Of a stretch of 64,000 nucleotides of DNA, positions 31,783-60,362 are shown in pieces. The notes below the pieces were generated by a model. It saw nothing but the letters and a program-made list of their open reading frames with translations, had not been told where the DNA came from and searched no databases. Source of the stretch: an uncultured Clostridia bacterium (GTDB lineage: Bacteria; Bacillota; Clostridia; Christensenellales; UBA1242); the NCBI GenBank assembly GCA_944381215.1, contig CALWKF010000001.1:65201-129200 (forward strand), read 5' to 3'. Within the stretch, counting starts at the first letter, position 1. Every line of letters starts with the position of its first letter. The translations under genes and the position numbers were made by a program.

Positions 31783-32367
31783 ATGATAACAGAAAATAAA
31801 GAAAAATTTATCTCGCTTTTAAAAAACAATGTAACCCGCGATGGTGCCGACAAATTACTCGAGTGGCTCGAGACTACTGATTTCTTTACAGCACCCGCTA
31901 GCACGAAATTTCACTCCGCAGTCGAGGGCGGGCTATGTGCTCACAGTCTCAATGTATTCGAGCGATTTTTGACACTTGTAAAGAGTGAATATGGCGAAGA
32001 CTGGCAACAGCATATTTCGCTTGAAAGCGTTACGCTAATCGCACTGCTACACGATATTTGTAAGGTTAATACCTATAAAATCGACTATAAAAATGTCAAG
32101 GTTGACGGCGTGTGGACGCAGCAGCCCTATTTTATGGTGGATGACCAACTTCCGTACGGCCACGGCGAAAAATCGGTGTACATAATCAACGGCTTTTTGC
32201 GCCTAACTCGTGAGGAGGCAATGGCAATAAACTGGCACATGGGCGGGTTCGATATGCGCGTGCGTGGTGGTTCGTACTCGATTTCGGACGCGTATTATAA
32301 GTATCCAATTTGCGTGCTTTTCCATGTTGCAGACCTTATGGCAACTTATTTGGACGAGCAAAAATAA
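31783..32367 (+). CDS. HD-domain phosphohydrolase
   Basis: FHSAVEGGLCAHSLNV...LLHDICK has the H...HD metal-binding pattern. Confidence 0.8.
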   Translation: MITENKEKFISLLKNNVTRDGADKLLEWLETTDFFTAPASTKFHSAVEGGLCAHSLNVFERFLTLVKSEYGEDWQQHISLESVTLIALLHDICKVNTYKIDYKNVKVDGVWTQQPYFMVDDQLPYGHGEKSVYIINGFLRLTREEAMAINWHMGGFDMRVRGGSYSISDAYYKYPICVLFHVADLMATYLDEQK

Positions 32368-32565
32368 CAATATTATATATTTGATGTATTTTATAGAAAA
32401 GTTTAGGAAAAATAGAAACAAAAAGTGAAATATTTTCAAAATATGTCGTTTTTTGTTTGTAAAACTTTTATTCAATGTGGTAAAATTAATTAAAGCATTT
32501 ACAGAGTATCTGCAATTTTACGAATAAAAATTTTTTCAAGACTAAAATAAAACGGAGGACATTTT

Positions 32566-35500
32566 ATGAGTACATTCTTGAGGGGTGTAAACCTATCTAA
32601 AAAGTGGTTAAAGATTACATTATTTGCCCTTTTAGCGGTCGTTTGCGCCACTGCGATTACTCTCGCGGTAGTCCTCTCTGGTCGCGATAACTATGTCGTT
32701 ACACCAGAGACAGAGTCAAAGGTCGAGGTGCTAGATTCCAGTGCGATTGTGTCTAAAAATGGCTGGAATAACACCTTGCTAGCACAACTCACTCAAAATG
32801 TGACTTCGTATGGGGATAATGTTGCTCTTGGTAATGCGGGTGGCGACATTGTGTCCTCAGTTGTTGAGTTGGGCGGTATTTCGTGGACCGTCGTATACAT
32901 GCAAGATGGTATAGTTACACTGTATGCAAATGAGGCAGTGGCTACTATGCCTTTTGGCAATACTGAATATAAAAATAGTCTAGTTAGAGATTACCTAATC
33001 AACGAATTTTACCCTGAGTTTATCGAAAAAATCGGCTATACCGACATCGAAAAATACATAATTCCTTATGGGCAGAGCGATATCTACTACCAGGCTGACG
33101 GCGCGCAGGCTGTTGTTTTGAGCACCCTAAATGGTGGCGAGATTAGCGGTAACGACGGCGTGGCAAACGATATGGTTTGGCTACCAAGTGCCTACGAAGT
33201 GGGCGGTTTTGCTAATAACGATTCTTCACCAAAATCACGTGTAAATAGTTTTAAAGTTATCGAGGCTGACGGCTTTACTTTAAATAGTGGTCTATTTAAC
33301 ACTTCAAACACTATTAGGCTTATGACCGATACATCTTGGCTCCGTTCTAGCGTAAATGGTGCACAATCAGCACTCAAAGATGGTGTTGTAAAGCAAGTTA
33401 ATGACGGGGAGTACGCAGTGCGCCCTTGTATCAATATCGCTCTTCCAGGCCTTGCTGACATTGTCGAAGTAAGCGAAGATATCGACAGTTCAAATGATAC
33501 CATTCTCGCAACTGTTGCTCCTGACTACTCGGACATTTTCAAAGAGTATTCTGACAATCAAGGTGAAGGCACGCAAGCAAGCCCTTATGTATTCTCTGAT
33601 CGCCAATTCCTAATCTATCTATCTGACGCAGTTATGGCTGGTCAGGATACAACTGATATGTACTTTCAAATGGCCGGTGACATCGACATGACTGGTGTGA
33701 CTGTTTGGAGTCCAATTGGTAGGGAAGGGTTCCCATTTAAGGGTCATTTTGATGGTAACGGTTACACTGTTAGCAACCTCGCTTCGGCAGGCTCGGGCCT
33801 TGTAGGTCTATTTGGCTATGTTGAAAATGCTGTTATTACTCAAGTGGGTGTTACAAATTCCTCTTGGTACACAACAAACTCTAATGTCGGCGGTATCGCA
33901 GGCCACGTTACAAACTCGCTAATTTCCGAGTGCTACAGCGATTGTGGTGTCGGTGGATACAAATATGTTGGTGGTCTAGTAGGTAGAATTATTCGTAGTA
34001 CTTCAACCGACGACTCTAAGGGTATTATAAACTGCTACAACCTCAATGGTATCACTGGCCGTGATTATGTCGGCGGTATCGCAGGTGAGGTATCAGCATC
34101 ATTAGTTAAAAACTGCTATAACACTGGTGCTACACAGGCAATCTACTCAAACCCAAGTTGCGGTGGTATTGCAGGTGCTCTAAACAACTCACCTAGTACC
34201 AGTTCGCTACAAAACTGTGTCTTCTACAACTCAACTGACAACAACCTTAACGGCGACACACCAATTTCATCTTATGACACTCTGCGTAACAGGGATGCAA
34301 TCGCTACTACATACCCAAGCTGGTCATTTAGGAACACCACCGCTAATGGCGTATGGTTCATGTCTAACGTAGTAAACGATCGTCTGCCTATGCTTTACTG
34401 CTTTATGCACAATGTTTCCGTTAACCTAATTTCGAACATCCCCGAGTGCTCCGTTTCTGCTGGCAAAACTGATGCGCAGATTAACTCGACACTCGCTATC
34501 GTTGCCTACGCAACTTCTACTACTAACGAGCACTACATGTTCGAGGGCTGGTATCACTTCGATGTTGACGCAGCAGGGAACAAGATTGAGGGGTCCGAGC
34601 GTCCGTTTGTGCTAATGTCTGATGAAAACAACGGAATTACAAAAGGCGCACTTTCTAATAACGCATACCCCTTCACATACAATCTAGTGTTAGACGACTA
34701 CTACAACCTCGAAGCGCGCTTTGTAAAACTATACAACTTTGAAGTAAGTCCTATGTTTAATGGCTTCACATCAAACTATACTGGTGGCTCTACATTTAGT
34801 TATACCGCTCATAACAGTGAAATGACTGCTGTACAGCCTGCTTATAACACTGATTTAACCACATGGACTAGCGGTGCTAGATGGTACCCTGAGGGCACTG
34901 TAATTACAATCAATATTCAGCCCGATGCTCAGCGTCAGTACTATCAATTAAATGTTGGACACAGCAGTACTAATGTTAATAATCAAGTGGCTAATCTAGG
35001 TGAGGATAATCCTTTCTACAACTTATCTTCAGGAGAGAATGGCTGGACATATAATATCACTATTAGAGATACAGCGGAATGGAATGGCTTTGATGTGTTC
35101 TATTTCAGACCTATGTTTAACAGGGTATATGCTCTCACCACTTCAGTAACTACTCCGTCAGGATACACCGAGACTACACCTATTTCACAGGTAACGTTTA
35201 CTAATCTGTCCAATGGCTCGACTACTATTAGCAGTAGTGGTGGAACAGCAACTGACAACACTATCTACACATCGACATTGACACTTAATATATCCAACTT
35301 AAATGATGTAAGTGGCAAACTCGTGTTCAGTAGTTGGATTCTAGAGTTTGTCGACCCAAGTGCTGGGGCACAAAGCTCTCAAGACCTTGGATCAAGTGTT
35401 GGTGCTACAAATGGGCAATATGCATTAACTGGCATTCAATCTGCTGTAACAGACACAACAACAGGCATTAATATTAGGGCAAACTTTAATTACGACACAA

Positions 35501-37197
35501 AACAGGTGTCAATTAGGGAAATGTACAACAGTGCTGAAAATTCTAATGCAGGTTACGTATATCTTTCCACAGAAAAGAAGGAGTCAAGTTTTGTGCCTAC
35601 ACAGGACATAACACAACTTACAAATCTTGACTACAACTCGACTGTCTACATCTACATTTTGCCTAACTATGCTGGTGGTTTCCAATACTCTTCGAACACT
35701 ATTCCTGGGGCTAACCTTACATCAAATTCATCTACTGGCGTAACTTATGGTAGTTTTGTAGTAAACTTTGCCGAAAGCAGTGCTACATATGATGTAGTAT
35801 ACACCGAGGCTAGCAACTTTGCGCTCAACTTTAATGTAACGCTGAATGGTGCAACACCTCCAGAAGACACCTTCCAAGTGTCAAGTAACGCAACTGGCCT
35901 CACTCTAAACTCGCCACTTAGCAGTTACACTGTAACCGTTTTGGGTGAGAACGAGTACAGAAAGTACTACATGAGAACTGTTAGAGTCGCATTCATTCCT
36001 GACTCTCTCGATGCAAATGGGACTACAATTATTACCTATACACCTAGTGGAATTTACCAAGGAACACAGGGTGCTCAGTCGATATTTGCGGGCCTTGGAG
36101 CAAACGCAGTTGTTAACAACATTTACACGAAAGCAAATGTTACGCCGAGCAACAAGAACACAACAATTTATGTTTACATTAACTACATTACGATTACTCG
36201 TACAATTAATGTAACTGAGTATATTGACAATGTTCCCACAACTTCTCGTAGTATGTACTCAATCACTGCTACTGGCGTTACAAACGGAAAGGGTGGTAGT
36301 GATTACATCCTAGAGGACACTATCACTCTAACTGCTGGCGCGTCAGGGGCTGATCAAATCGGTTTTAGAGTTGACTCAATTACAATTACTCCAAATCTTG
36401 CTGCTGCAACTATTGATGGCTCTACTTGGGGAAATTCTGGTACCCTTAAATTTAAGTTAACCGAGGATGTATCAATTTCAATTTACTACACTCAACGTCC
36501 ATACAACATCACTATCGGCGACAACTTAAACAACACAAGTTATGGTAGCACAGTTACTGGATTGAAAGTTACTGTTAGCAACAACCACTTTAACTACACT
36601 TTAACTGGTGGTTCTTCAACGCAATACAGCGCACCATTTACGGGTTTATTCTCTAATAGCTTAACTATTAATGGTTATCAAACTCAAATTGATTTAACAA
36701 TTGATGATTTAAAGCGCAAGGCAGTGCTTAATCGTATCGTTGTGCTCGATTCGAACAATGCTTTACTAAAGGAATATGACCCAGCATCGCAATTTACCTA
36801 CACACTAAACGATGCAAACGACAATATAAAAATTGTATTCCAGTATCAACTGTTACAGGCATTAAATGTAACATTTAGTGATGAAGTAACTGGGGGAAGT
36901 AACGCAGCACTCGTAGTTCTCGAAAATGTACATGATTCTAGCGACCGCCTAGTACTAATCGTACCAGCAGGGCAAGACGGTGTTACAGTAGATTGTCAAG
37001 TTGCTGAATACCGCGTAACTATTACCGTTGCAATCTTTGTTCAAACCGCTGTAAATACTACTCCTGTTGGTTCAGGTAGTGTGCAGGACGGTAACTACCA
37101 GATTTCTATTGCAGATGGAAAGGCAACTTCGGTAGCAATTACAGTGCAAAACATTATTAACGGTGTGGACAGCGTGTTTGCATCAGGCTCGATGTAA
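32566..37197 (+). CDS. giant surface protein: N-terminal signal anchor, DUF6273-like head, GLUG-motif repeats, long Ser/Thr/Asn-rich beta-rich region
   Basis: TM LKITLFALLAVVCATAITLAVVL. MVWLPSAYEVGG...SWLRSS...YAVRPCINIAL (same head family as the two paralogues). Repeated VGGIAG / VGGLVG ...NCYN (GLUG-like). GGAGGA RBS. Confidence 0.85.
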   Translation: MSTFLRGVNLSKKWLKITLFALLAVVCATAITLAVVLSGRDNYVVTPETESKVEVLDSSAIVSKNGWNNTLLAQLTQNVTSYGDNVALGNAGGDIVSSVVELGGISWTVVYMQDGIVTLYANEAVATMPFGNTEYKNSLVRDYLINEFYPEFIEKIGYTDIEKYIIPYGQSDIYYQADGAQAVVLSTLNGGEISGNDGVANDMVWLPSAYEVGGFANNDSSPKSRVNSFKVIEADGFTLNSGLFNTSNTIRLMTDTSWLRSSVNGAQSALKDGVVKQVNDGEYAVRPCINIALPGLADIVEVSEDIDSSNDTILATVAPDYSDIFKEYSDNQGEGTQASPYVFSDRQFLIYLSDAVMAGQDTTDMYFQMAGDIDMTGVTVWSPIGREGFPFKGHFDGNGYTVSNLASAGSGLVGLFGYVENAVITQVGVTNSSWYTTNSNVGGIAGHVTNSLISECYSDCGVGGYKYVGGLVGRIIRSTSTDDSKGIINCYNLNGITGRDYVGGIAGEVSASLVKNCYNTGATQAIYSNPSCGGIAGALNNSPSTSSLQNCVFYNSTDNNLNGDTPISSYDTLRNRDAIATTYPSWSFRNTTANGVWFMSNVVNDRLPMLYCFMHNVSVNLISNIPECSVSAGKTDAQINSTLAIVAYATSTTNEHYMFEGWYHFDVDAAGNKIEGSERPFVLMSDENNGITKGALSNNAYPFTYNLVLDDYYNLEARFVKLYNFEVSPMFNGFTSNYTGGSTFSYTAHNSEMTAVQPAYNTDLTTWTSGARWYPEGTVITINIQPDAQRQYYQLNVGHSSTNVNNQVANLGEDNPFYNLSSGENGWTYNITIRDTAEWNGFDVFYFRPMFNRVYALTTSVTTPSGYTETTPISQVTFTNLSNGSTTISSSGGTATDNTIYTSTLTLNISNLNDVSGKLVFSSWILEFVDPSAGAQSSQDLGSSVGATNGQYALTGIQSAVTDTTTGINIRANFNYDTKQVSIREMYNSAENSNAGYVYLSTEKKESSFVPTQDITQLTNLDYNSTVYIYILPNYAGGFQYSSNTIPGANLTSNSSTGVTYGSFVVNFAESSATYDVVYTEASNFALNFNVTLNGATPPEDTFQVSSNATGLTLNSPLSSYTVTVLGENEYRKYYMRTVRVAFIPDSLDANGTTIITYTPSGIYQGTQGAQSIFAGLGANAVVNNIYTKANVTPSNKNTTIYVYINYITITRTINVTEYIDNVPTTSRSMYSITATGVTNGKGGSDYILEDTITLTAGASGADQIGFRVDSITITPNLAAATIDGSTWGNSGTLKFKLTEDVSISIYYTQRPYNITIGDNLNNTSYGSTVTGLKVTVSNNHFNYTLTGGSSTQYSAPFTGLFSNSLTINGYQTQIDLTIDDLKRKAVLNRIVVLDSNNALLKEYDPASQFTYTLNDANDNIKIVFQYQLLQALNVTFSDEVTGGSNAALVVLENVHDSSDRLVLIVPAGQDGVTVDCQVAEYRVTITVAIFVQTAVNTTPVGSGSVQDGNYQISIADGKATSVAITVQNIINGVDSVFASGSM

Positions 37198-37230
37198 TAC
37201 GGGTTTATAAATAAAAAAGGGAGAAAAATC

Positions 37231-38145
37231 GTGTTCAATAAATTATTTAGAAATGGACAACTGATTGATATGCACATTCATACGCAATATTCCGACGGAA
37301 TGTATTCCGTTCCTGAATTGTTGCGTTTTGCTGAAAATCGTGGGCTAGATGTTATGGCCTTTACCGATCATGACAACTTAGAGGCGAATTTTGAAGTGCG
37401 CGAGATGAAAAGTAATGGGGGTTTTTGTGGCCGAATTGTAAACGGCTGTGAGATTGCTGTTACTTATAATGGGCACAAGTACGAAGTGCTGGCATATGAC
37501 TTTGATTTGGACACGCTAGCAAAGTTCCCTGTACTCAATTACGATTATCAGTTTATGTTGGAGGAAAAGAGGCTAGAGACTCTAAAGGAAATCGGCGCAA
37601 GACTTGGGTTTAAGTTCACTGAGGGCTTGCAGTTTGACCCTGTTTATCGTACTGCGCACAAGACCTTTTTCCACGACCTAGCAAATTATCCAGAGAACCA
37701 AAGATTGTACTTGAAGTATGGTATTGAAAAAACTGATAACTTTTATCGTGATCATGTAGCAAAACCTGGGGCAATTTTCCACTGCTACGAATTAATTAAA
37801 GACACTCCTACAATTGAGGAGGTGTGCCAGCGCATTCATGAGGCAGGTGGATATGCAATCTTTGCGCATGCATTTAGGGTATATGGCGAGCCAAATCCTA
37901 AGAAGTTGATCAAAGACTTAACAGCACTTGATATTCTAGACGGATTTGAGTGTATTCACAAAAAGTTTAGTTTATCTGAGTGTCAGTGGCTCGAAAATTA
38001 CTGTAACGAACAACATCTAATCAAAACAGGTGGTTCCGATTTCCACGGGGATGGGTTCAAGATTGACGGCAAGCGTTTCGCGCCAGAATATCTTGGATAC
38101 GTACAAAATTCGGACTTGGAGATTAAGTTCCCTATAAAAAAATAA
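37231..38145 (+). CDS. PHP-domain phosphoesterase
   Basis: IDMHIHTQYSDG...AFTDHD...GGSDFHG is the PHP metal-binding pattern. GTG start behind GGGAG. Lies between two giant surface-protein genes. Confidence 0.8.
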   Translation: MFNKLFRNGQLIDMHIHTQYSDGMYSVPELLRFAENRGLDVMAFTDHDNLEANFEVREMKSNGGFCGRIVNGCEIAVTYNGHKYEVLAYDFDLDTLAKFPVLNYDYQFMLEEKRLETLKEIGARLGFKFTEGLQFDPVYRTAHKTFFHDLANYPENQRLYLKYGIEKTDNFYRDHVAKPGAIFHCYELIKDTPTIEEVCQRIHEAGGYAIFAHAFRVYGEPNPKKLIKDLTALDILDGFECIHKKFSLSECQWLENYCNEQHLIKTGGSDFHGDGFKIDGKRFAPEYLGYVQNSDLEIKFPIKK

Positions 38146-38185
38146 AAAGTTTTAGATTTGGGCAATCTAATTCTTGGAGGAAAAT

Positions 38186-41100: not shown

Positions 41101-42724
41101 GGATCTCGCTAGAAATTATGAAAACAGTAGTTACGACAGTGTAAACGGAACATTTACTTGCACTGGAATTGAAGAAAATATTTATCTAACCGTATACTTT
41201 GCGCTAGTCAACACCCAAATCACATTTACAGCAGAAGGCGTGGATGAAGAGGGCGGATGGTACCTTTACGACGGTAGTAATATGGTTGATACCCAGGGTG
41301 AAATTGCTATCAAATCATACGCAAACGATGTGCGCGTGCAACTAGCTAGCGCATATAGAGATAACGGCGAATACACACGTAAATACACATTTAGCCACTG
41401 GGAAATCAATGGTATTCCCGTATCAAGTGCGAGCGATTACACATTTAAAGTAACTGGCGAAGAAATGAATGTCAACGCCGTGTTTATGCCAGTTGAATTG
41501 CGTGTAACCGCTAATGTTGTCAGAATCAACGAAAACTCAGGCATGTATGATAACCTTAGTGAAGCTGGCGATGTAAAAGGCTTACTAGTAAACACCTACC
41601 ACTATGGCGACGTTATCACTCTTGAAGCGTCAACTCACAAGGGCTTTGTGTTCCTAGGGTGGTATGTTTGGAACGAGAACTTGGATTCGAGCCAAGCAAA
41701 TGGCAGATTCATTACCGATGAGCCAACAATTACTTTAACTATCACATCAAACACCAAGATTTACGCCACTTTCGAGCGTATTAGCAATGTCACTATACAA
41801 ATGTCTGACGACAGCGCAGGCACAACCACTGGTAGTGGTACCTACATGGTGGGCGAAAACATCACCCTGTCTGCAACCCCTAACGCAGGTTACAGGTTCG
41901 TAAGCTGGCAGGAGAACGGTAGTGTCGTAAGTAACGATGCTAACTACCGCTTAACAGTTACTAGGGACGATCGCACTCTACTTGCTGTGTTCGAGCCAAT
42001 TTTTAAGATAACTCTTATTTCTAGTAACGATGACTACGGCAAAATTATTGGCAACACTAGCGGAAACTACCGCGAGAATGTAACCCTAAGGGCTGTCAGC
42101 GAAAACAACTGCTCCTTTGTTGGTTGGGTTATTAACGATAAGATTGTCAGCACTTCTGATACATTAAGCCTAAACCTAAACGGTGATATCGAAGTGCGTG
42201 CACTGTTTAAGAAAAACTTTGACTGGAATATCTTGATTATTTTGGTAGGTTGCGTGCTGTTTGCTGGTATCTTGATTGCTGGTTCCGCAGCTTACATCAA
42301 GATGAGAGAGGCAGAACCAATGCCTGTCCGCGTACTGCTTAATAGCAAGGATGACAAAGAAGCCCTGCAGAAGCCTTCTAGGCGCAATCAATACCGCGAC
42401 ACCATTGAGCCAGTACCTACACGCAAGAATACAAAGGCAAATGTCGCTCCTATCCCTGTTAGAAAGATTACAGTCGCTCCTATTAATCACAAGGGCGAGT
42501 TGGTAGGCAGGACAAAACGCGCCGCTGAGGAGCAACCAACACTAAAGACCGAGACAACTCCTGAAAAACCTATTGAAAAAGAAACAAAGAGTGAAAAGAC
42601 AGAAAAGCCTAAAACCACCACGGCTGCAAAGTCAAAATCAACTCAAAATTCTAAATCAAAGGCAAATAAGGGCAAGAAGTCAGGTGGCAATCACAAGGGT
42701 AAAAAGTCCAAAAAGAAAAAATAA
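38186..42724 (+). CDS. giant surface protein: N-terminal TM, GLUG-motif region, ~10 InlB-B-like repeats, C-terminal TM and ~190-aa Lys-rich tail
   Basis: ATG 38186 behind GGAGG (track TTG 38174 lies in the RBS). YVGGLAGAL...NCYN motifs. Recurring GY(E/R)F(I/V)SW / GFVFLGWY repeat motifs. TM ILIILVGCVLFAGILIAGSAAYI, then ...KGKKSGGNHKGKKSKKKK. Confidence 0.85.
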   Translation: MNSNRFFKLSKWKIMQTVLLLLLGAVVAISFLVPNSISNRNYVSADEVDAVPASSLEGFVPTALGSGEYFETEVDSSVEPNATYYLISDADDLRTLAYFVNTTFTEEQTSELELQEKYSRASYRMTNHIDLSRWTQWEPIGTMANPFSGSFSGQGYSIYGLTIIDDIEEPTTDTYAGLFGNVSYLKDGDTEYKPVIQRLGLKDTIIKTNREYVGSIVAVANGVNPMIYGADAIINPTFRTKTEVENISSDETVNRAYSDAQGSLVIQDCYNVGYVEGGNYVGGLAGALYYGAVIYNCYNAPSTTNAYNTNYDVYSSNANSNIGGIVGAGDFTTMAIVYNCISTVSVSKQDATNSSTNIGYIIGSKSNLAGSTQYTYNVYYNRNFTYSGDFGTGLSLARLSSTSYLTNRGFSITGYNPGTWASNTSTIWAQQSDVNNGVPVLYNVPQLVKYDFVAQDVDGNELIASEAISEAVDTADLEAYDGALLFEQGTSFLTRGTSVMEYKYEFSKWSEYYTANSIEPAEYEDYIANSDISSVQFFTNHDATIIAVFGFKTYTLTLTADPSDKIDGENTIISIRDGISNTYNNVQNGLTVEYNDEITIQGVATTGYEISAWTTMYQDAISGTGADITLSVQAYVDAYMSASQAEIPVSLNIIAHIQPKSYDFSINEIDSSIGTITATVNGGDSLGTSDSVEFGSQIALQATVTDPNYEFISWVISFGNGTTQQIELLNYSFTVQDQGSISITANFDKKKFYVTISSVAGGSASVISATESSTSGNSFYYDETIEIQATASTGYELTGINVYKGEELIDLDSEGMVFDLESGVLTINTLNADIRVVPVFSIMSFDLTVVVTPADGATVTYNGESIVGTNEFVYNTDVPINVFVTEGYELVSITSDDGAVYSNGNFVKVLKDTTITITLQKQTFVVNVTINYDSSSAYSIDASCINGVGQYTYGDVVEISFDTPVMFRFSRWDLARNYENSSYDSVNGTFTCTGIEENIYLTVYFALVNTQITFTAEGVDEEGGWYLYDGSNMVDTQGEIAIKSYANDVRVQLASAYRDNGEYTRKYTFSHWEINGIPVSSASDYTFKVTGEEMNVNAVFMPVELRVTANVVRINENSGMYDNLSEAGDVKGLLVNTYHYGDVITLEASTHKGFVFLGWYVWNENLDSSQANGRFITDEPTITLTITSNTKIYATFERISNVTIQMSDDSAGTTTGSGTYMVGENITLSATPNAGYRFVSWQENGSVVSNDANYRLTVTRDDRTLLAVFEPIFKITLISSNDDYGKIIGNTSGNYRENVTLRAVSENNCSFVGWVINDKIVSTSDTLSLNLNGDIEVRALFKKNFDWNILIILVGCVLFAGILIAGSAAYIKMREAEPMPVRVLLNSKDDKEALQKPSRRNQYRDTIEPVPTRKNTKANVAPIPVRKITVAPINHKGELVGRTKRAAEEQPTLKTETTPEKPIEKETKSEKTEKPKTTTAAKSKSTQNSKSKANKGKKSGGNHKGKKSKKKK

Positions 42725-42728
42725 TACA

Positions 42729-42756
42729 AAAGACTGCTAAATAGCAGTCTTTTTGT
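42729..42756 (+). terminator. rho-independent terminator
   Basis: aagactgct / agcagtctt 9-bp stem with a 4-nt loop, then a T run. Confidence 0.8.
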
Positions 42757-42806
42757 TTGATAAATCGATGCAAATTAGATATAATTAAAGAAAAAAGGAT
42801 AGTGTT

Positions 42807-43232
42807 ATGTTATATCTCGCAAACGATCACGCAGGTTATTCTTTAAAAGAGGAATTGGTAAAATATTTAAAAAAACATAATATCGAGTACGATGACTTAG
42901 GCTCATATTCTGCCGAACGCACCGACTTTCCGCAATATGCAAAGTTGCTCTCCGAAAAGGTAGCTAGTAGTCCCGACAACCGCGGTGTGCTGATTTGTGG
43001 AACTGGAATAGGGATGAGCATCGCCGCAAATCGAAACCCAAAGATTCGAGCCGCTCTTTGCAAAAATGTAAAGACTGCACGCCTCTCTAGACAGCATAAC
43101 GATGCCAATGTGCTGGTTTTAGCAGGCAGAAGCACTTGTAAGTTTCGGGCTAAACGAATTTTAGCAACCTTCTTGTCAACCGACACTTTGGGCGGAATAT
43201 ACGCAGAACGTATGCGTGAAATCGACAATTAA
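42807..43232 (+). CDS. rpiB: ribose-5-phosphate isomerase B
   Basis: LANDHAGYSLKEELVKYL...ICGTGIGMSIAANR is the RpiB/LacAB signature. Confidence 0.92.
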   Translation: MLYLANDHAGYSLKEELVKYLKKHNIEYDDLGSYSAERTDFPQYAKLLSEKVASSPDNRGVLICGTGIGMSIAANRNPKIRAALCKNVKTARLSRQHNDANVLVLAGRSTCKFRAKRILATFLSTDTLGGIYAERMREIDN

Positions 43233-43316
43233 AACTAAAAAACTTGGATTATTCCCAAGTTTTTTCGTATTTTCATAGTCAATATTTAATATATTTATAG
43301 AAAAGGAGTGAGTACT

Positions 43317-43994
43317 ATGAAATTACGTTATCTTTTTAGCGTCTTGCCATTGTGTGTCGCGTTTATGTTCGCAGGGTGTGGGGTGACTGCCGAAGATTTG
43401 ACTAAAAATCACTTGGCAGAACTTCAAAATAACTTCTTTGTGGGTACTACACAAAATTTTAAGGTTTCCTTGTGGAGTGGTACAAGAGAGGAACCGTACG
43501 AGCCTAATGGCGAGTTAGGGGAACTTGTTGATTTCTGTATTATCAGTGTTGTGCCAGTAGGGGATGTAAACACTTTCGGGCTAAATTATACAGTAGAGGT
43601 AAACGATATGACCTATAATGGTGAGTTCGAAAAAAGCCCGTTTGATAATAGCCTAGCCGCTGATATTGGTGTCAGTGTCGAGGATACCGACACTATTTAT
43701 GCCTATATTATCATGGATGGTGTGTCCGAGGTGGGGAAACTCGAGTGCGTCTCAACTAACTTTGCGATAAAAAATACCGATGCGCTAAATATCGTGGTAG
43801 ATAACTTCGGCGAAAATATTTTAACTCTATCTAATAATGGAGAAATCCCAGTTGAGGCCTATTGCAAAATTATCAGTACAGATAAAAATCTAGGCGTGTA
43901 TTTTTGGTACGTTAGAGTCGTAAACGCCGAAGGTCAGGATATATCAGTTGTCATTGACCCAAATAGTGGCGAGATTATGGCAAAAAAGTTGTAA
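43317..43994 (+). CDS. putative lipoprotein
   Basis: MKLRYLFSVLPLCVAFMFAGCGV has a lipobox-like FAGC. AAGGAG RBS 8 nt before ATG 43317. Confidence 0.65.
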   Translation: MKLRYLFSVLPLCVAFMFAGCGVTAEDLTKNHLAELQNNFFVGTTQNFKVSLWSGTREEPYEPNGELGELVDFCIISVVPVGDVNTFGLNYTVEVNDMTYNGEFEKSPFDNSLAADIGVSVEDTDTIYAYIIMDGVSEVGKLECVSTNFAIKNTDALNIVVDNFGENILTLSNNGEIPVEAYCKIISTDKNLGVYFWYVRVVNAEGQDISVVIDPNSGEIMAKKL

Positions 43995-44129
43995 CATTTT
44001 TTAACTCCATTCTATATAATGACAATGTAGAGATAAATCTTTTAAAAGCACAAAAGATTGTAAAATACGAAAGAATTTATACATAATGATAAAATTCCTT
44101 GAAAAACAATAGATTTGGAGGTCCAAAAG

Positions 44130-44342
44130 ATGTTCAGCAAATTATTCGGAAACGGCTGTGGCTGTTCTGGAAAAAATTCTAGTTGCGATGTCCTTACATG
44201 GTTGGTAATTCTCTATGTACTAATGAACTGCGGTATCCTAAACTGTGGTCTTGACTGGTGCACTATCTTAATCTTGTTACTGTTTTTCTGCTGCTGCTTC
44301 AAGAAAGATGGCTGTGGATGTAACAACTATGGTTGCAACTAA
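44130..44342 (+). CDS. Cys-rich small membrane peptide (70 aa)
   Basis: GGAGG 8 nt before ATG 44130 and a terminator downstream. GNGCGCSG...two hydrophobic segments...FFCCCFKKDGCGCNNYGCN. Confidence 0.55.
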   Translation: MFSKLFGNGCGCSGKNSSCDVLTWLVILYVLMNCGILNCGLDWCTILILLLFFCCCFKKDGCGCNNYGCN

Positions 44343-44374
44343 TCTATCTAATTAACTAAACACTCTATCTAATT

Positions 44375-44420
44375 GTACACTCTTAAAAAGCATAATGCCT
44401 TTTAGGAGTGTACTTTTTTC
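44375..44420 (+). terminator. rho-independent terminator
   Basis: gtacactcttaaa / tttaggagtgtac 13-bp stem (one G-U pair), then T6. Confidence 0.75.
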
Positions 44421-44623
44421 ATGTATAGATGCGTTAACCACGAAATTAATACCTAATTTAAATTAAATACTGTCAAATTAACTAAATGAAATAGGGGCGA
44501 ATTTTACCTTTCGACAAAATAAGTCCAAAAGTTACAGAATAAAAGAAATCAACTATCTTAAACTAGAATTGTAAAAAAAGCGATTTTTTTGGTAAAATGT
44601 TTATAAAATTAGCGCGTAATTTG

Positions 44624-44652
44624 TTGACAAAACTTCGGTAATGTTATACAAT
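44624..44652 (+). promoter_or_regulatory. sigma-A promoter for the 44686 gene
   Basis: TTGACA (44624-44629), 17-nt spacer, TACAAT (44647-44652). Confidence 0.5.
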
Positions 44653-44685
44653 TGCAATGTTACTAATTAAACAAGGAGACCTTAA

Positions 44686-47600
44686 ATGAAAACGAAATTA
44701 TTAGGCAAGATTACTTTATTAGCATTTGTGCTAATGGTGACTCTGTCATTCGGTTCAATCAGTCCTATGTTAGCCACCGTTAGCGCAGCTACCACAATCG
44801 AGAGTGCTGGTGACACTGGATATATTATTGAATTGACAGGGTATCAATCAAGCTATGACTTGGATGATACCGAAGATTTTGGCGACGCTACGGGATACAA
44901 ACTCCCTACACCTGTTGTAAAGAGCTGGACTGGCTCTACAACTCAGGTTGAGAGTGGTGTAAACGTGGATGTTACCGTTACCAGTTCTTCTGGTAGAGAG
45001 GTCGCAGTCGCTGTAAGTGGCTCAGACCGCTTTATTCAAGTAGGCAAGTCTGACCGCTACACCGTAACTTACACCGCTACAAACGAAAGTGGCGTAGTTA
45101 CCGCTACCCGCAATGTTACAATCGACATCACTGCACAGGATGCCGAGTTTGAGTTTGACTCTAACAGTCCTCAAATTATGCCCACAGTTGTTGAGGCAGG
45201 GGACAAAATCGTATTCCCATGGCCAAAAGTAAGCTTTGGCGATGACCAATACGCAACTGAGCCAAACATCACAATCACCCTTGAAGGTCCTACAAAGGCA
45301 AGCGAGGGTGCTACCAGCGCAGTTACTTCGCGTGAGTTAGGCAACCAGGTTATTGACAATGTTAACTACAAGACTTACACTGTTACCGAAAACGACACTG
45401 GTACCTTTACCGTAACCTATACCTACGACAACAGCGGTACTGACATTGTTGAGAAGTTTACATTCAATGTTGTTACGACCGCTCCCGAGGTAAATCTCGC
45501 TTACAGCGGATGGTCAAGTTCGATTGAGAACTTGTCGCTATCAGTAGGTCAGGAGGCACCTCTTCCAACACCTACCGTTATTAACACCGCACAAAGCAAT
45601 GTAACAGTTAGCAATGTTTACACCGAAATCACTATCGTAAACCTAACAACTAACAAAACTTACCCTGTAATTACTGACTTCAAGTTTACCCCAGACGAAG
45701 ACGGCGACTACCGCATTACCTACGTTACAAAGGACTTTACTGGTGCCGTTGTTTCGTACACTACTTTGAAGAGTCACGTTAGAAAGACTGGCGACTCTAT
45801 TACCATTAAAGTAGTAGATGACTACTCTGACAAGGTAACTGTTGACGGCGAGGGTAACACCACAATCGACTCTAGTATGGCAGACATCAACGATGTTGAA
45901 AATGCTGACTACGCAATTCCGTCGAACGTTTACCTAGTTGGTGGCGAGGCTACCGTTACATTCCCAGCAATTTATGCAACAGCAGGTTGGGGGGATTATG
46001 ACAACCTTCACTTAACTCGTCAAATTTACCGCAGAAACTCTTCGCAACAAATTCTAGAGCGACAGCAGAAGCCAAACAGTTCTGAGACCTACAAGGCATA
46101 CGAAGAGGCACCTTACACCTTCACATCAGAGGGCGAGTACTCAATTCGTTACATCGCATACTATGTTGACGACGAGGGTAAAGAAATTAATGGTACTACT
46201 AGACAGTTGAGCATCAGCTTCACTGTTCACGATGTTGACGCAGAGCCTACAATCGACCTTAGTATCACTGCTCCAAATGTTACAAAGGCTACTAGAAAGG
46301 GTAGCACAATCACATTCAGTGCACCTACTGCTACCTCTGTAATTTCGGGTACTAACGAAGTTGCCGACGCAAACATCAAAATCGATGTTCGTTACAGATT
46401 TAACTACGGCACAGGCTACAGCGACTACTACACCGCTGAGTTAAACGACGACAATCTATACGAAATTAAGATTGAAATGCCAGAGGGAATGGAAGAGGCT
46501 CAATGGAACACTGTTTCATCTCTTGAAATTTCCTTCAAGGCAATCGATGACTTCTGCGACGGCGTACCTGCTACTGCCGTTAGAACGGTTAGCATCGTAG
46601 ACTTTTCTGCAGACAACACCGCTCCACAACTTACTGCTTTTGACGCAAGTGTTGACTCGAGCGAGGCAGGCATTCTAACTCTTCCTACTGTTACCTTCAC
46701 TGATGACAACTCGAGCATCAGCCTAGTTGCATACGTATTGAAGGGCAACAGTGTAATGAGAGTTATTAACGCAAACACTGGCGATACCGCAACAATTCAA
46801 GGTGCTACCTACACACCTACCGAAGAGGGTACCTACACTGTTACCTTTGTTGCAACCGACCAGAACAACAACATTAGCACAATCAGTGTTAACTACAAGG
46901 TGGACTTCCACAACGGATACTCTGTATCTATTGACAACATCAGCGCACAACAATATGGTACTGTAATCAATCTCCTTGACTACATCAATGTTACCGACCA
47001 CGGCACTGCTATCGACATGGCTGACATGACAGTTAGAGTCGTTCAAGAAGAGGTTACTCAAGAGTTCCTTAATAGTGCCGAGAGTATGCCTAACAACACA
47101 TTGATTATCTATGTATCTGGCGACTTCCAATTCCCGATTGCTGACCGTATCGACGGCGAGATTGTTACTCTCGAGGGTGATGTAACCGTTAGAGCATGGG
47201 CAAAGGATAGCGAAGGCGTATGTGACTACACACAAAATGGTTCTTCAGCAATCACATTTACAACCTCTGACTCTACAAACCCGACCTTCACAATCGAGGA
47301 TGAGTCGCTCGACGGTAGTAACTACGAGTTTACTGACAGCACCGCTGACAACGAGATTACTCTTCCTTGGTTTGACCGCGTAATCGACAACGAGAGCGGT
47401 ATCAACCCCGACACCATGAAGATTGAAGTGTACTACCAGGACACTCCTGACGAAATCATTCACACATTTACTAGTGCAAACATCGATGCATTGAAATTCA
47501 CACCAAATAGACAGGGTAAGATTACTGCCGAGTACTCAGTATCTGACATGATTGGTAACACTTACACCCGTACGTTTACCCTAAACATCGGTGATGTTAC

Positions 47601-48069
47601 TCCTCCTGAAATCGTGCTAAATGATGGCGCAATTACTGCTGACAACTACGTTGGTGGTAAGTTGACTATCGACCTAAACAACTTCGATATTGACAACGAC
47701 GCGCTTGACCCGCTAGAAGACATTGCTATCACCATTACTCGTGATGGTACCGATGTTGAATTCTCTCGCGACAGTGAGAACCGCAACATTATTGAAATTA
47801 CTCTTGACACCGCAGGCACTTATGTAGTTACTTTCGATACTGAGGACACCGCAGGCAACCAGGCACAGACTGTTACTAGAACTTACAACATTTCTGCACA
47901 GTCTACTACTCCTACAAACACTGCAACTATTTGGGGTACAATATTGATTATTGTAGCATTAATTGTACTAGGTCTTGTAATATTCTTCTTTGTAAAGCCT
48001 TCTAAGTCAAAGGTTTCCGCTCCTAAGACTACTACAAAGAAAGATGAGGACAGCAAGAAGAACAAATAA
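44686..48069 (+). CDS. large surface protein with tandem Ig-like domains, cleavable signal peptide, C-terminal TM anchor
   Basis: Signal MKTKLLGKITLLAFVLMVTLSFG...ATVSAATT. Recurring domain starts of D-x-T-x-P type (DNTAPQLT, DSTNPTFT, GDVTPPEIV). TM ILIIVALIVLGLVIFFFV plus a K-rich tail. No LPXTG. Confidence 0.85.
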   Translation: MKTKLLGKITLLAFVLMVTLSFGSISPMLATVSAATTIESAGDTGYIIELTGYQSSYDLDDTEDFGDATGYKLPTPVVKSWTGSTTQVESGVNVDVTVTSSSGREVAVAVSGSDRFIQVGKSDRYTVTYTATNESGVVTATRNVTIDITAQDAEFEFDSNSPQIMPTVVEAGDKIVFPWPKVSFGDDQYATEPNITITLEGPTKASEGATSAVTSRELGNQVIDNVNYKTYTVTENDTGTFTVTYTYDNSGTDIVEKFTFNVVTTAPEVNLAYSGWSSSIENLSLSVGQEAPLPTPTVINTAQSNVTVSNVYTEITIVNLTTNKTYPVITDFKFTPDEDGDYRITYVTKDFTGAVVSYTTLKSHVRKTGDSITIKVVDDYSDKVTVDGEGNTTIDSSMADINDVENADYAIPSNVYLVGGEATVTFPAIYATAGWGDYDNLHLTRQIYRRNSSQQILERQQKPNSSETYKAYEEAPYTFTSEGEYSIRYIAYYVDDEGKEINGTTRQLSISFTVHDVDAEPTIDLSITAPNVTKATRKGSTITFSAPTATSVISGTNEVADANIKIDVRYRFNYGTGYSDYYTAELNDDNLYEIKIEMPEGMEEAQWNTVSSLEISFKAIDDFCDGVPATAVRTVSIVDFSADNTAPQLTAFDASVDSSEAGILTLPTVTFTDDNSSISLVAYVLKGNSVMRVINANTGDTATIQGATYTPTEEGTYTVTFVATDQNNNISTISVNYKVDFHNGYSVSIDNISAQQYGTVINLLDYINVTDHGTAIDMADMTVRVVQEEVTQEFLNSAESMPNNTLIIYVSGDFQFPIADRIDGEIVTLEGDVTVRAWAKDSEGVCDYTQNGSSAITFTTSDSTNPTFTIEDESLDGSNYEFTDSTADNEITLPWFDRVIDNESGINPDTMKIEVYYQDTPDEIIHTFTSANIDALKFTPNRQGKITAEYSVSDMIGNTYTRTFTLNIGDVTPPEIVLNDGAITADNYVGGKLTIDLNNFDIDNDALDPLEDIAITITRDGTDVEFSRDSENRNIIEITLDTAGTYVVTFDTEDTAGNQAQTVTRTYNISAQSTTPTNTATIWGTILIIVALIVLGLVIFFFVKPSKSKVSAPKTTTKKDEDSKKNK

Positions 48070-48080
48070 TGCTTTATAAA

Positions 48081-48108
48081 AGAGCAGGCGAACAGCTTGC
48101 TCTTTTTG
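48081..48108 (+). terminator. rho-independent terminator
   Basis: agagcaggc / gcttgctct stem (one G-U pair), then T5. Confidence 0.7.
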
Positions 48109-60062: not shown

Positions 60063-60156
60063 ACTTATTTACTGCTTTCTAAAGAGATTTTTTACGCAAT
60101 TTAAATAATTTACCAGTATTTTACAGCCTATAATTTTTAAAAACTTTTTAAAAAAT

Positions 60157-60185
60157 TTGCTAAAAACCTCGAAAATTGTTATAAT
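60157..60185 (+). promoter_or_regulatory. sigma-A promoter, homologue of 8383-8411
   Basis: TTGCTA (60157-60162), 17-nt spacer, TGtTATAAT (60177-60185), within a block homologous to 8338-8420. Confidence 0.55.
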
Positions 60186-60362
60186 AATATTATTAGAATA
60201 TGTAAAGGAGGGAATCAACAACAAACAACTTCTAGGACGATGTAGCCTTTAATTGCTAGTTAATCATAGTATAACCTTGTTTAATTTAAGTCGATTATTA
60301 AATTATATCTTGTTCCTAGTCTAAAATTAAATTATATTAAGTTATGTTGTTGAAAAATAAAT

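What the first reader, a model, noticed from the sequence alone, without database searches (positions are those of the whole stretch)
32566..48069. Cluster of giant envelope proteins anchored by TM segments rather than LPXTG, interleaved with a PHP phosphoesterase, a lipoprotein and a Cys-rich peptide
**The three large proteins.**
- The 1543-aa protein (32566) has an N-terminal signal anchor and no C-terminal TM.
- The 1512-aa protein (38186) has N- and C-terminal TM segments and a ~190-aa Lys/Thr/Pro-rich cytoplasmic tail ending KGKKSKKKK.
- The 1127-aa protein (44686) has a cleavable signal peptide, a C-terminal TM, and a short Lys-rich tail.

**Shared and distinct content.** The first two share GLUG-type repeats (VGGIAG / VGGLAG ... 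NCYN). The second carries about ten B-repeat-like units. The third has tandem Ig-like domains.

**What is absent and what is nearby.** I saw no LPXTG, SLH, CWB2 or choline-binding motifs. A PHP-domain phosphoesterase is wedged between the first two genes, 33 nt after one and 40 nt before the next, so co-transcription is likely. A lipoprotein and a 70-aa Cys-rich membrane peptide lie between the second and third.

**Interpretation.** Together with 53679-56957 and the two paralogues, roughly a third of this window encodes surface proteins with an unconventional anchoring logic. Whether these genes work together as a system is unknown.
Basis: partly seen in the sequence, partly recalled or inferred. 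Interest (0 to 1): 0.55.

Follow-up and report, generated by a model that had tools for sequence, protein, structure and literature searches.

The report
Membrane-anchored giant surface proteins, not one system
An uncultured gut Clostridia bacterium related to Christensenella carries three fast-evolving, adhesin-like giant surface proteins held by membrane-spanning segments and slotted between ordinary housekeeping genes, which makes this an ordinary kind of feature with two small curiosities.

Summary
All ORFs, spacings, transmembrane (TM) topologies and domain guesses were reproduced, and no sortase, SLH, CWB2 or choline-binding signal was found. There are two corrections. The cytoplasmic tail of the second giant is about 141 aa, not about 190.

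The 'system' reading is not supported. The window is core chromosome of an uncultured Christensenella-like Clostridia MAG. In about 12 more distant species the order is HD-PHP-RpiB-lipoprotein-Cys peptide-G3, with no giants beside PHP. In about 20 closer species G1 and G2 sit on either side of PHP. PHP is therefore an ancestral housekeeping gene trapped between two inserted genes. Terminators and promoters split the region into at least four transcription units.

- **G1:** N-terminal TM anchor, a C-type-lectin-like DUF6273 domain, a GLUG beta-helix and a variable C-terminal 900 aa.
- **G2:** signal peptide, GLUG beta-helix, at least 8 InlB-type B-repeats and a C-terminal TM.
- **G3:** a rod of about ten Ig-like domains with a C-terminal TM.

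All three diverge far faster than their neighbours. The two curiosities are G2's proximal cytoplasmic tail, which is its best-conserved segment, and the 70-aa Cys-rich peptide, which is restricted to this clade yet 62-100% conserved.

The parts
31783..32367 (+). HD-domain protein (194 aa). It is the conserved upstream neighbour of PHP and part of the ancestral backbone.
   Evidence: Weak Pfam HD hit (E 3.6e-4). Orthologue at 60-92% identity immediately upstream of PHP, or of G1, in nearly all related loci.
32457..32486 (+). Promoter-like site with an extended -10 upstream of G1.
   Evidence: Consensus scan, 9/12 matches with TG. Sequence read. This is an inference only.
32566..37197 (+). G1, a 1543-aa giant surface protein. 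It has an N-terminal signal anchor (about aa 12-38), a DUF6273 C-type-lectin-like domain (about aa 52-295), a GLUG beta-helix (about aa 340-560) and a variable beta-rich C-terminal part of about 900 aa. There is no C-terminal TM.
   Evidence: AF2 model of residues 1-710, pLDDT 80. Fold matches to the beta-helix of M26 IgA1 proteases 7uvl and 6xja and to phage DUF6273 proteins.
34800..35100 (+). Within-species variation hot-spot in G1, about 20% mismatches against about 1% in housekeeping genes.
37231..38145 (+). PHP-domain phosphoesterase (304 aa, GTG start). It is cytoplasmic and TrpH/YciV-like, an ancestral housekeeping gene.
   Evidence: PF02811 at 44 bits. NCBIfam RNase RNM and pAp-phosphatase models score 77 bits, far below their cut-offs of 375 and 400. 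The orthologue group spans 55-98% identity and then drops to 35% or less. Synteny.
38186..42724 (+). G2, a 1512-aa type I membrane protein. It has a signal peptide, a GLUG beta-helix module, at least 8 Flg_new_2 (InlB B-repeat) units, a C-terminal TM and a cytoplasmic tail of about 141 aa.
39160..39442 (+). Allelic mosaic patch in G2, with 20-30% divergence between strains of the same species.
   Evidence: The allele in L001 resembles the one in species L014, which points to recombination rather than A-specific mutagenesis.
42224..42583 (+). G2 TM segment plus the conserved proximal cytoplasmic tail. The tail contains tandem EPVPTRK / PIPVRK motifs followed by VAPxNHKGE.
   Evidence: Tail alignment of 18 orthologues. 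With the adjacent juxtamembrane stretch this is the most conserved part of G2: blocks 1301-1450 average 54-63% identity against 23-33% in the stalk.
42728..42753 (+). Intrinsic terminator after G2.
   Evidence: 11-bp stem followed by a T-run.
42807..43232 (+). rpiB (ribose-5-phosphate isomerase B, 141 aa). It has its own promoter (42757-42785) and terminator (43237-43265).
   Evidence: PF02502, E 4e-47. TIGR01120 at 142.3 bits against a cut-off of 138.65.
43317..43994 (+). Lipoprotein of 225 aa with lipobox MFAG|C and a weak PepSY-like C-terminus.
   Evidence: PepSY E 0.021, below threshold. Orthologues at 31-87% identity across the clade.
44130..44342 (+). Cys-rich peptide of 70 aa with two TM segments. 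It is restricted to this clade and highly conserved.
   Evidence: It is 62-100% identical in 24 loci. Only 2 cluster representatives were found among 1.84 billion proteins. No Pfam or NCBIfam hit.
44624..44652 (+). Promoter-like site (TTGACA, 17 nt, TACAAT) upstream of G3.
   Evidence: 11/12 match.
44686..48069 (+). G3, a 1127-aa type I membrane protein. It has a signal peptide (about aa 1-34), about ten tandem Ig-like beta-sandwich domains (aa 36-1070), a Ser/Thr linker, a TM (aa 1085-1103) and a 24-aa Lys-rich tail.
   Evidence: AF2 model, pLDDT 76. Foldseek matches are generic multi-Ig rods. Some homologues carry PF16403.
48078..48106 (+). Intrinsic terminator after G3.
   Evidence: 12-bp stem followed by a T-run.

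Best explanation
This is not one system. It is a conserved housekeeping stretch (HD hydrolase, PHP phosphoesterase, RpiB, then UvrB/UvrA) of an uncultured Christensenella-like gut Clostridia bacterium. Genes for giant, Sec-exported, membrane-anchored, adhesin-like fibrils have accumulated in this stretch.

- **G3**, with its upstream lipoprotein and Cys-rich peptide, is old and found across the whole clade.
- **G1 and G2** were acquired once, in one subclade, on either side of PHP. PHP is now read through as the middle gene of a G1-PHP-G2 transcript.
- **G1** is held by an uncleaved N-terminal signal anchor. Its conserved lectin-like DUF6273 domain and GLUG beta-helix lie near the membrane, and its variable 900 aa point outward.
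- **G2 and G3** are type I proteins. A C-terminal TM helix with a basic tail holds a stalk of B-repeats (G2) or Ig-like domains (G3). In G2 the stalk presents a GLUG beta-helix at the distal tip.

**Shown:** gene order, topology, domain content, conservation pattern and evolutionary rates.

**Inferred:** ligand binding or adhesion as the function, diversifying selection by phage or host as the cause of the rapid divergence, and the transcription units.
For: **Genomic context.**
- The window is core chromosome: ffh, trmD, leuS, pcrA, ligA, gatAB, priA, rsgA, rpe, fakA and uvrBA.
- The closest genome records are titled uncultured Christensenella sp. or Clostridia bacterium.

**Synteny census over 36 loci.**
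- Loci with PHP at 66-98% identity have HD-G1-PHP-G2-RpiB.
- Loci with PHP at 55-65% identity have HD-PHP-RpiB-lipoprotein-peptide-G3, with no giants beside PHP.
- The lipoprotein-peptide-G3 trio is present in 24 loci across both groups.

**Transcription.**
- Terminators follow G2, rpiB and G3. Promoters with 11/12 matches precede the HD gene, rpiB and G3.
- No terminator lies in the 33-nt and 40-nt gaps around PHP.

**Topology.** It is conserved in every orthologue, and no sortase motif occurs in 34 C-terminally anchored proteins.

**Domains.**
- DUF6273 in G1 and Flg_new_2 in G2.
- The GLUG module is shared by G1 and G2. It is also shared with hundreds of giant proteins that carry SLH, dockerin, type IX secretion tails or M26_N instead.
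- DUF6273 is described as a C-type-lectin-like receptor-binding domain in phage tentaclins (PMC10743442). It is also the N-terminal domain of the IgA protease ThomasA (PMC12402451).

**Rates.**
- G1 is 42% identical where PHP is 96% identical.
- Within the species G1 differs by 3-7% and shows mosaic patches, against about 1% in housekeeping genes.
Against: - No expression, localisation or binding data exist.
- Signal-peptide cleavage could not be predicted with a dedicated tool. G1 could therefore be released rather than anchored.
- The rest of the genome could not be searched for sortases or other wall-binding modules.
- G2's proximal cytoplasmic tail is conserved more strongly than its ectodomain. 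This implies a cytoplasmic partner that a pure adhesin-on-an-anchor model does not explain.
- G1-PHP-G2 has kept its tight spacing in about 20 species. That is compatible with neutral inheritance but is not proof of it.
Confidence: 0.7

Rival explanations
1. G1-PHP-G2 is a functional three-gene module. The cytoplasmic PHP phosphoesterase would act with the giants, for example on a nucleotide signal or on a partner bound by G2's conserved cytoplasmic tail.
For: - The gaps are 33 and 40 nt with no terminator, and each gene has a ribosome-binding site.
- The arrangement is retained, with gaps of about 15-40 nt, in about 20 species.
- G2's proximal tail is its most conserved segment.
Against: - PHP orthologues in the sister subclade sit between the same HD gene and rpiB with no giants.
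- The group carrying the giants is a single block by PHP identity, so one insertion event explains the co-occurrence.
- PHP has no signal peptide or TM. It resembles general RNase AM or pAp-phosphatase-type enzymes.
Confidence: 0.1
2. The giants, especially the clade-wide G3, are structural envelope or S-layer-like coat proteins rather than adhesins. The lipoprotein and the Cys-rich peptide would be assembly or anchoring partners.
For: - G3, the lipoprotein and the peptide are syntenic in 24 loci across the whole clade.
- G3 has a near-consensus promoter and its own terminator.
- The fold search lists the S-layer proteins Sap and SbsB among many multi-Ig hits.
- The peptide is an orphan conserved at 62-100%.
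Against: - The Sap and SbsB matches are generic Ig-rod matches, ranked 39-45 with TM-scores of about 0.1.
- The three genes appear to be separate transcription units, and spacing and insertions between them vary.
- G3 diverges quickly, to 25-30% identity across the clade. It has a single TM anchor, unlike classical S-layer proteins.
Confidence: 0.15
3. The beta-helix giants G1 and G2 are surface enzymes, either polysaccharide-degrading enzymes or proteases of the IgA1-protease type, rather than binding proteins.
For: The best fold matches of the G1 N-terminus are M26 IgA1 proteases. Weaker matches are to pectate lyases and phage tailspike depolymerases. Some GLUG homologues carry Peptidase_M26_N.
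Against: - None of the giants has an HExxH motif, and Pfam finds no peptidase, lyase or glycoside hydrolase domain.
- The match to the IgA1 proteases covers only their non-catalytic beta-helix domain, about 214-256 aligned columns.
- The lyase and tailspike matches have E values of 0.03 or worse.
Confidence: 0.08
4. TM anchoring reflects an unusual envelope in this lineage, with a thin or absent wall or no sortase at all. It would then be a necessity rather than a special logic of this cluster.
For: - Every exported large protein with a C-terminal anchor in 0.87 Mb of clade sequence lacks a sortase motif.
- No sortase-like ORF was found there with S. aureus SrtA as the query.
- From my own knowledge, Christensenella minuta stains Gram-negative although it belongs to the Firmicutes.
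Against: - Only the surroundings of two loci were sampled, not whole genomes.
- From my own knowledge, Christensenella is reported to have peptidoglycan containing LL-DAP.
Confidence: 0.3

Closest known systems
Hydrophobic-tail (C-terminal TM) anchored Gram-positive surface proteins, for example Listeria ActA (own knowledge)
   Same: G2 and G3 have an N-terminal signal peptide, a large ectodomain, a single C-terminal TM helix followed by a basic tail, and no LPXTG.
   Different: - They are far larger and are built from B-repeat or Ig-like stalks.
- G2's tail is about 141 aa long and has a conserved proximal motif block.
- G1 instead uses an N-terminal signal anchor.
GLUG-motif giant surface proteins and the N-terminal beta-helix of M26 IgA1 proteases (PF07581 / PF05342; PDB 7uvk, 7uvl, 6xja)
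   Same: - G1 and G2 contain about 200-250 aa of VGGxAG...NCYN repeats.
- This module is homologous to that of PF07581-bearing proteins (E 1e-25 to 1e-73).
- It is modelled as a right-handed beta-helix that superposes on the IgA1 protease N-terminal domain.
   Different: - There is no Zn-metalloprotease domain and no HExxH motif.
- Homologues elsewhere are attached by SLH, dockerin or type IX secretion tails, whereas here attachment is by TM segments.
- The Pfam Glug score for G1 (18.2 bits) is just below the cut-off of 20.5.
DUF6273 C-type-lectin-like domain of phage tentaclins and the ThomasA IgA protease (PMC10743442, PMC12402451)
   Same: G1 residues 130-292 pass the Pfam threshold (30.7 against 23.5). 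The model matches phage DUF6273 proteins.
   Different: - The window has no diversity-generating retroelement: no reverse transcriptase and no template repeat.
- The domain is among the more conserved parts of G1, so it is not hypervariable here.
InlB B-repeat / Listeria-Bacteroides repeat proteins (PF18998 Flg_new_2, PF09479)
   Same: G2 carries at least 8 such units (125 bits). The 739-aa and 650-aa paralogues in the window carry them too.
   Different: There is no leucine-rich-repeat internalin domain and no GW or LPXTG anchor.
Multi-Ig-domain fibrillar adhesins, stalk-plus-tip architecture (own knowledge)
   Same: G3 is a rod of about ten beta-sandwich domains on a membrane anchor. Some homologues carry PF16403.
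   Different: G3 itself has no Pfam domain above threshold, no recognisable tip domain, and a TM rather than a wall anchor.

Membership tests
Sortase-anchored (LPXTG) surface proteins | C-terminal LPXTG-type motif followed by a hydrophobic segment and a basic tail (PF00746) | tested here: not met
   No motif in G1, G2 or G3 or in 34 related C-terminally anchored proteins. No PF00746 hit.
Sortase-anchored (LPXTG) surface proteins | A sortase gene present in the genome | not testable with these tools
   Only the window and about 0.87 Mb of related loci could be scanned, with no hit.
SLH-, CWB2- or choline-binding wall-attached proteins | PF00395, PF04122 or PF01473 repeats | tested here: not met
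   No Pfam hit at E<=0.01. Some distant GLUG homologues do carry PF00395.
Hydrophobic-tail / TM-anchored surface proteins | N-terminal export signal, a single C-terminal TM and a positively charged cytoplasmic tail | tested here: met
   Met for G2 and G3 and conserved in all orthologues. G1 has only an N-terminal TM, so it is of the signal-anchor type.
GLUG motif family (PF07581) | Pfam gathering score | tested here: inconclusive
   G1 scores 18.2 bits against a cut-off of 20.5. However, phmmer links the module to many PF07581 proteins at E<=1e-25, and the motifs are visible in the sequence.
M26 IgA1 metalloproteases | Zn-metalloprotease catalytic domain with HExxH | tested here: not met
   No HExxH motif and no peptidase Pfam hit. 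Only the beta-helix domain matches.
DUF6273 (PF19789) | Pfam gathering score | tested here: met
   G1 scores 30.7 bits against 23.5. The precomputed hit is also present in most orthologues.
Diversity-generating retroelement (DGR) target proteins | A nearby reverse transcriptase and a template repeat matching a variable region with adenine-specific differences | tested here: not met
   No reverse transcriptase among the window ORFs. No repeat pairs with G1. Strain differences are mosaic allele swaps. A DGR acting from elsewhere in the genome cannot be excluded.
InlB B-repeat (PF18998 Flg_new_2) | Pfam gathering score | tested here: met
   G2 scores 125.2 bits against 23.6. A self-built HMM finds 8 units.
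Internalins | N-terminal leucine-rich-repeat domain | tested here: not met
   No LRR Pfam hit.
Bact_surface_Ig-like (PF16403) / Big domains | Pfam gathering score in G3 | tested here: inconclusive
   G3 has only sub-threshold Big_3_4 and InlK_D3 hits. Homologues P0120, P0122 and P0123 carry PF16403. The model shows Ig-like sandwiches.
PHP phosphoesterases of the TrpH/YciV (RNase AM) or pAp-phosphatase type | PHP domain, plus the equivalog score for a specific enzyme | tested here: inconclusive
   PF02811 at 44 bits is met. NCBIfam RNase RNM and nucleoside-bisphosphate phosphatase score 77 bits against cut-offs of 375 and 400, so these are not met. Only superfamily-level membership is shown.
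RpiB | TIGR01120 equivalog score | tested here: met
   142.3 bits against 138.65.
Bacterial lipoproteins | Signal peptide ending in a lipobox [LVI][ASTVI][GAS]C | tested here: inconclusive
   The N-terminus MKLRYLFSVLPLCVAFMFAG|C has the hydrophobic region and the AG|C core, but Phe sits at position -3 instead of L/V/I, so the strict pattern is not matched. No dedicated predictor was available.

The most novel reading that the evidence does not exclude
The TM segments may be more than passive anchors. G2's conserved proximal tail carries tandem EPVPxRK motifs followed by VAPxNHKGE. It could dock a cytoplasmic partner that positions or regulates the giant fibril, possibly together with the co-transcribed PHP enzyme. 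Separately, the clade-restricted, highly conserved Cys-rich two-TM peptide and the PepSY-like lipoprotein could form a dedicated membrane platform for G3. Either would be a sortase-independent surface-display machinery specific to this Christensenella-like lineage.
Probability: 0.12. Interest if true: 0.6.

Novelty: new member of a known kind. Interest (0 to 1): 0.3.

Why it matters
- **Practical value.** Christensenella-like Clostridia are heritable, health-associated gut bacteria whose cell surface is almost uncharacterised. The analysis gives a defined, rapidly diversifying and partly phase-variable set of membrane-anchored adhesin-like proteins. These are candidates for host, methanogen or phage interaction and for strain typing.
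- **Lesson for annotation.** A conserved tight gene sandwich (giant-PHP-giant) can arise by insertion around a housekeeping gene. It should not be read as a functional system without looking at outgroups.
- **What may deserve experiments.** The conserved G2 tail and the orphan Cys-rich peptide are the only parts that might hide new biology.

Tried and rejected
- **PDB sequence searches.** Searches with G1, G2 and G3 gave no meaningful hit.
- **RNA genes.** Rfam at gathering thresholds and a tRNA scan of the window found nothing.
- **Wall-less (Mollicutes-like) host.** I considered this as an explanation for TM anchoring. It is rejected as the primary reading because the nearest genome records are titled Christensenella or Clostridia. 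The envelope type itself could not be tested.
- **DGR hypermutation of the DUF6273 domain.** No reverse transcriptase or template repeat was found, and the domain is conserved. The within-species hot-spot in G2 turned out to be an allele swap.
- **Protease function.** No HExxH motif.
- **Literature.** A search for Christensenellaceae with sortase, and one on the Christensenella envelope, gave nothing usable.
- **Sortase ORFs.** This is uninformative for the whole genome.
- **Homology of the small proteins.** Lenient Pfam and NCBIfam scans of the Cys-rich peptide found nothing. The lipoprotein gave only a sub-threshold PepSY hit.
- **Fold search of G3.** It returned only generic multi-Ig matches.

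Full report
**1. Observation**

- G1: 32566-37197, 1543 aa.
- PHP: 37231-38145, 304 aa, GTG start behind an AGGGAGA ribosome-binding site.
- G2: 38186-42724, 1512 aa from the ATG behind GGAGG.
- Lipoprotein: 43317-43994, 225 aa, with the lipobox MFAG|C.
- Cys-rich peptide: 44130-44342, 70 aa.
- G3: 44686-48069, 1127 aa.

A hydropathy scan reproduces the stated topologies.
- G1 has one TM at residues 19-37 and nothing at the C-terminus.
- G2 has an N-terminal signal sequence and a TM at about residues 1351-1375.
- G3 has a signal peptide and a TM at residues 1085-1103, followed by 24 Lys-rich residues.

No LPXTG-like motif is present. Pfam finds no Gram_pos_anchor, SLH, CW_binding or LysM domain.

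Three corrections are needed.
- G2's tail is about 141 aa, not about 190.
- G1 also contains a DUF6273 domain (30.7 bits against a cut-off of 23.5).
It lies between G2 and the lipoprotein.

**2. Context and organism**

The window is ordinary core chromosome. It carries ffh, rpsP, rimM, trmD, rplS, leuS, pcrA, ligA, gatA/B, priA, rsgA, rpe, an Asp23-family gene, fakA, uvrB and uvrA. Surface-protein genes are interspersed among them.

Exact-match look-ups place the window on gut-metagenome contigs. L002 is 100% identical over 20.4 kb. A scan of GTDB species representatives with a PHP profile returns records titled 'uncultured Christensenella sp.' or 'Clostridia bacterium'.

The PHP protein has a clean orthologue group. 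In the protein search it spans 55-93% identity and then drops to 30%. The genome scan adds loci up to 98% and then drops to 35% or less. This group defines the clade used for comparison.

**3. Conservation of the neighbourhood**

I located homologues of every window gene in 42 loci by tblastn (gene calls). Two arrangements appear.

*Closer subclade* (PHP at 66-98% identity, about 20 species representatives, L011-L030 plus L007 and L008).
- The order is HD194-G1-PHP-G2-RpiB.
- It is usually followed by lipoprotein, peptide, G3 and UvrB.

*More distant subclade* (PHP at 55-65% identity, about 12 representatives, L031-L042 plus L009 and L010).
- The order is HD194-PHP-(small ORF)-RpiB-lipoprotein-peptide-G3.
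- It is often followed by the 1092-aa protein on the opposite strand.
- No giant gene lies beside PHP.

Two conclusions follow. First, HD-PHP-RpiB is the ancestral string. G1 and G2 were inserted on either side of PHP once, so PHP is a trapped housekeeping gene. L028 has only a G2-like gene. Second, the lipoprotein-peptide-G3 trio is the older, clade-wide element, present in 24 loci.

But the conservation does not argue for a PHP-giant functional link.

**4. Transcription units**

These come from a consensus scan and are inferences (sequence read).
- Terminator-like hairpins follow G2 (42728-42753), rpiB (43237-43265) and G3 (48078-48106).
- Promoters with 11/12 matches precede HD194 (31728), rpiB (42757) and G3 (44624).
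- No terminator lies in the G1-PHP or PHP-G2 gaps.

The region is thus at least four units: (HD?)-G1-PHP-G2, rpiB, lipoprotein with or without the peptide, and G3.

**5. What the giants are**

*G1.*
- A model of residues 1-710, built on 32 sequences with pLDDT 80, shows four parts. These are a TM helix (12-38), a mixed alpha/beta domain (52-295, which is DUF6273), a disordered linker, and a beta-strand solenoid (about 340-560) that carries the VGGxAG/NCYN motifs.
- Foldseek places the solenoid on the non-catalytic beta-helix of the M26 IgA1 proteases. The matches are 7uvk, 7uvl (214 columns, 4.5 A, 19% identity) and 6xja.
- In the viral library the model matches 'putative IgA1 protease' and 'DUF6273 domain-containing' phage proteins.
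- The literature describes DUF6273 as a C-type-lectin-like receptor-binding domain of phage tentaclins (PMC10743442). It is also the N-terminal domain of the Thomasclavelia IgA protease ThomasA (PMC12402451).
- No giant has an HExxH motif.

*G2.*
- It shares only the GLUG module with G1 (26% identity, E 9e-13).
- It then carries at least 8 InlB-type B-repeats.

*G3.*
- A model built on 9 sequences, with pLDDT 76, is a chain of about ten beta-sandwich domains. These are followed by a disordered Ser/Thr linker and the TM helix.
- Its fold matches are generic multi-Ig rods: GhpA, contactin, alpha-2-macroglobulin and Sap.

*Distribution of the modules.*
- A database search with G1 found about 38 full-length orthologues, all in this clade.
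- Beyond these there are hundreds of giant proteins that share only the GLUG module. They are combined with SLH, dockerin, type IX secretion tails, M26_N or fn3 domains.
- The modules are therefore common currency. Only the attachment device differs here.

**6. Anchoring across the clade**

- Every G1 orthologue has only an N-terminal TM.
- Every G2 orthologue has a signal peptide, a C-terminal TM and a basic tail of 40-158 aa (72 aa or more in all but the divergent L028).
- Every G3 orthologue has a C-terminal TM and an 18-40 aa basic tail.
- Among 61 distinct exported proteins of at least 400 aa in the related loci, 34 have a C-terminal TM. None of these has a sortase-type motif upstream of it.
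- Whether the genomes encode a sortase could not be tested. A phmmer search with SrtA over 0.87 Mb of held sequence found nothing, but this is weak evidence.

**7. Evolutionary behaviour**

- The giants diverge much faster than their neighbours. Where PHP is 96% identical, G1 and G2 are about 42% and G3 about 52% identical.
- Within the species, housekeeping genes differ by about 1%. G1 differs by 3-7%, with a hot-spot at 34800-35100. G2 has one patch of 20-30% divergence at 39160-39442.
- That G2 patch is an allele swap. The allele in L001 resembles the one in species L014. This points to recombination, not DGR-type mutagenesis.
- Conservation profiles show that G1's membrane-proximal 500 aa (TM, DUF6273, GLUG) are its most conserved part, at 45-63%. 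Its C-terminal 900 aa are at 20-35%.
- In G2 the most conserved stretch is the juxtamembrane segment, the TM and the proximal tail, at 54-63%. The stalk is at 23-33%.
- The tail alignment reveals a conserved block, YIKxKEAEPMxVRxLLxSKDDK...EPVPTRK...PIPVRKIxVAPxNHKGE. A variable, optional Lys/Ser/Thr-rich end follows it.

**8. The small genes**

- The 70-aa peptide is MFSKLFG..GCGC..KNSSCDVLTxLVIxYVLxNCGIxNCGLDxCTILILLLFFCCCFKK..C.C. It has two TM segments and Cys clusters at both ends.
- It is 62-100% identical across the clade.
- It has only two cluster representatives among 1.84 billion proteins and no family hit.
- The lipoprotein has a sub-threshold PepSY-like C-terminus (E 0.021).

**9. 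Interpretation**

The best-supported reading is a set of independent, Sec-exported, membrane-anchored fibrillar proteins. Each combines binding modules (lectin-like DUF6273, GLUG beta-helix) with repeat stalks. They are under diversifying pressure, and they accumulated on a housekeeping backbone.

PHP, RpiB and the HD protein are bystanders. Adhesion or ligand binding is inferred from domain homology only.

Four rivals remain.
- A true G1-PHP-G2 module (about 0.1).
- A structural coat role for G3, with the two small proteins as partners (about 0.15).
- Surface enzymes (about 0.08).
- A lineage-wide absence of sortase, which would make TM anchoring obligatory (about 0.3, and compatible with the main reading).

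**10. Novelty and score**

The domain families, the stalk-plus-tip architecture and TM or hydrophobic-tail anchoring are all known. This is a new member of a known kind in a poorly studied lineage.

The conserved G2 tail motif block and the orphan Cys-rich peptide are unexplained and mildly interesting. Interest is 0.3.

Noticed in passing
window 8440-8560 (5' end of the 739-aa DUF6273/Flg_new_2 surface-protein gene, 8553-10772): A G10 homopolymer at 8493-8502 lies inside the 5' coding region. The ATG at 8453 with G9 gives a 765-aa ORF with a signal peptide. With G10, as in this window, the frame stops after 19 codons, and only a GTG-started ORF without a signal remains. Other samples of the same species carry G8, G9 (four samples, ON), G10 (two samples) and G11. 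This is a likely slipped-strand ON/OFF phase-variation switch, although assembly noise at the homopolymer is not excluded.
   Followed up: yes
window 8002-8530 and 59288-60440: Families of non-coding repeats, 75-95% identical with a periodicity of about 300 nt in the second block, lie upstream of the two paralogous surface-protein genes. The second block also holds a remnant copy of the leader, including its G10 tract (60363-60412). No Rfam family matches. The nature of the repeats is unknown: a duplicated leader, a miniature mobile element or a structured RNA.
   Followed up: partly
window 44130-44342: The 70-aa Cys-rich two-TM peptide is an orphan restricted to this clade. It has only 2 representatives among 1.84 billion proteins, yet it is 62-100% conserved and always lies between the lipoprotein and G3.
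   Followed up: partly
window 42299-42583: The proximal cytoplasmic tail of G2 contains tandem EPVPTRK / PIPVRK motifs and a VAPxNHKGE motif. It is conserved more strongly than the ectodomain. No other ORF in the window carries the motif.
   Followed up: partly
window 53679-56957 (minus strand): A 1092-aa protein with a signal peptide, a TM at residues 930-948 and a cytoplasmic tail of about 144 aa rich in charged heptad-like sequence. It has no Pfam hit. In the more distant subclade it lies directly after G3, whereas here uvrB, uvrA and a 107-aa ORF separate the two.
   Followed up: partly
window 6337-7455: A 372-aa MORN-repeat protein sits between a UPF0102-family gene and rplS. It is present in some strains of the species (L070, L071, L075) and absent from others (L072-L074, L076, L077).
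   Followed up: no
loci L007/L024 15891-19063: In one related species G2 is followed by HAD, ASCH and GmrSD_N (a DNA-modification-dependent nuclease domain) genes instead of rpiB. The downstream side of G2 is therefore a variable insertion point.
   Followed up: no
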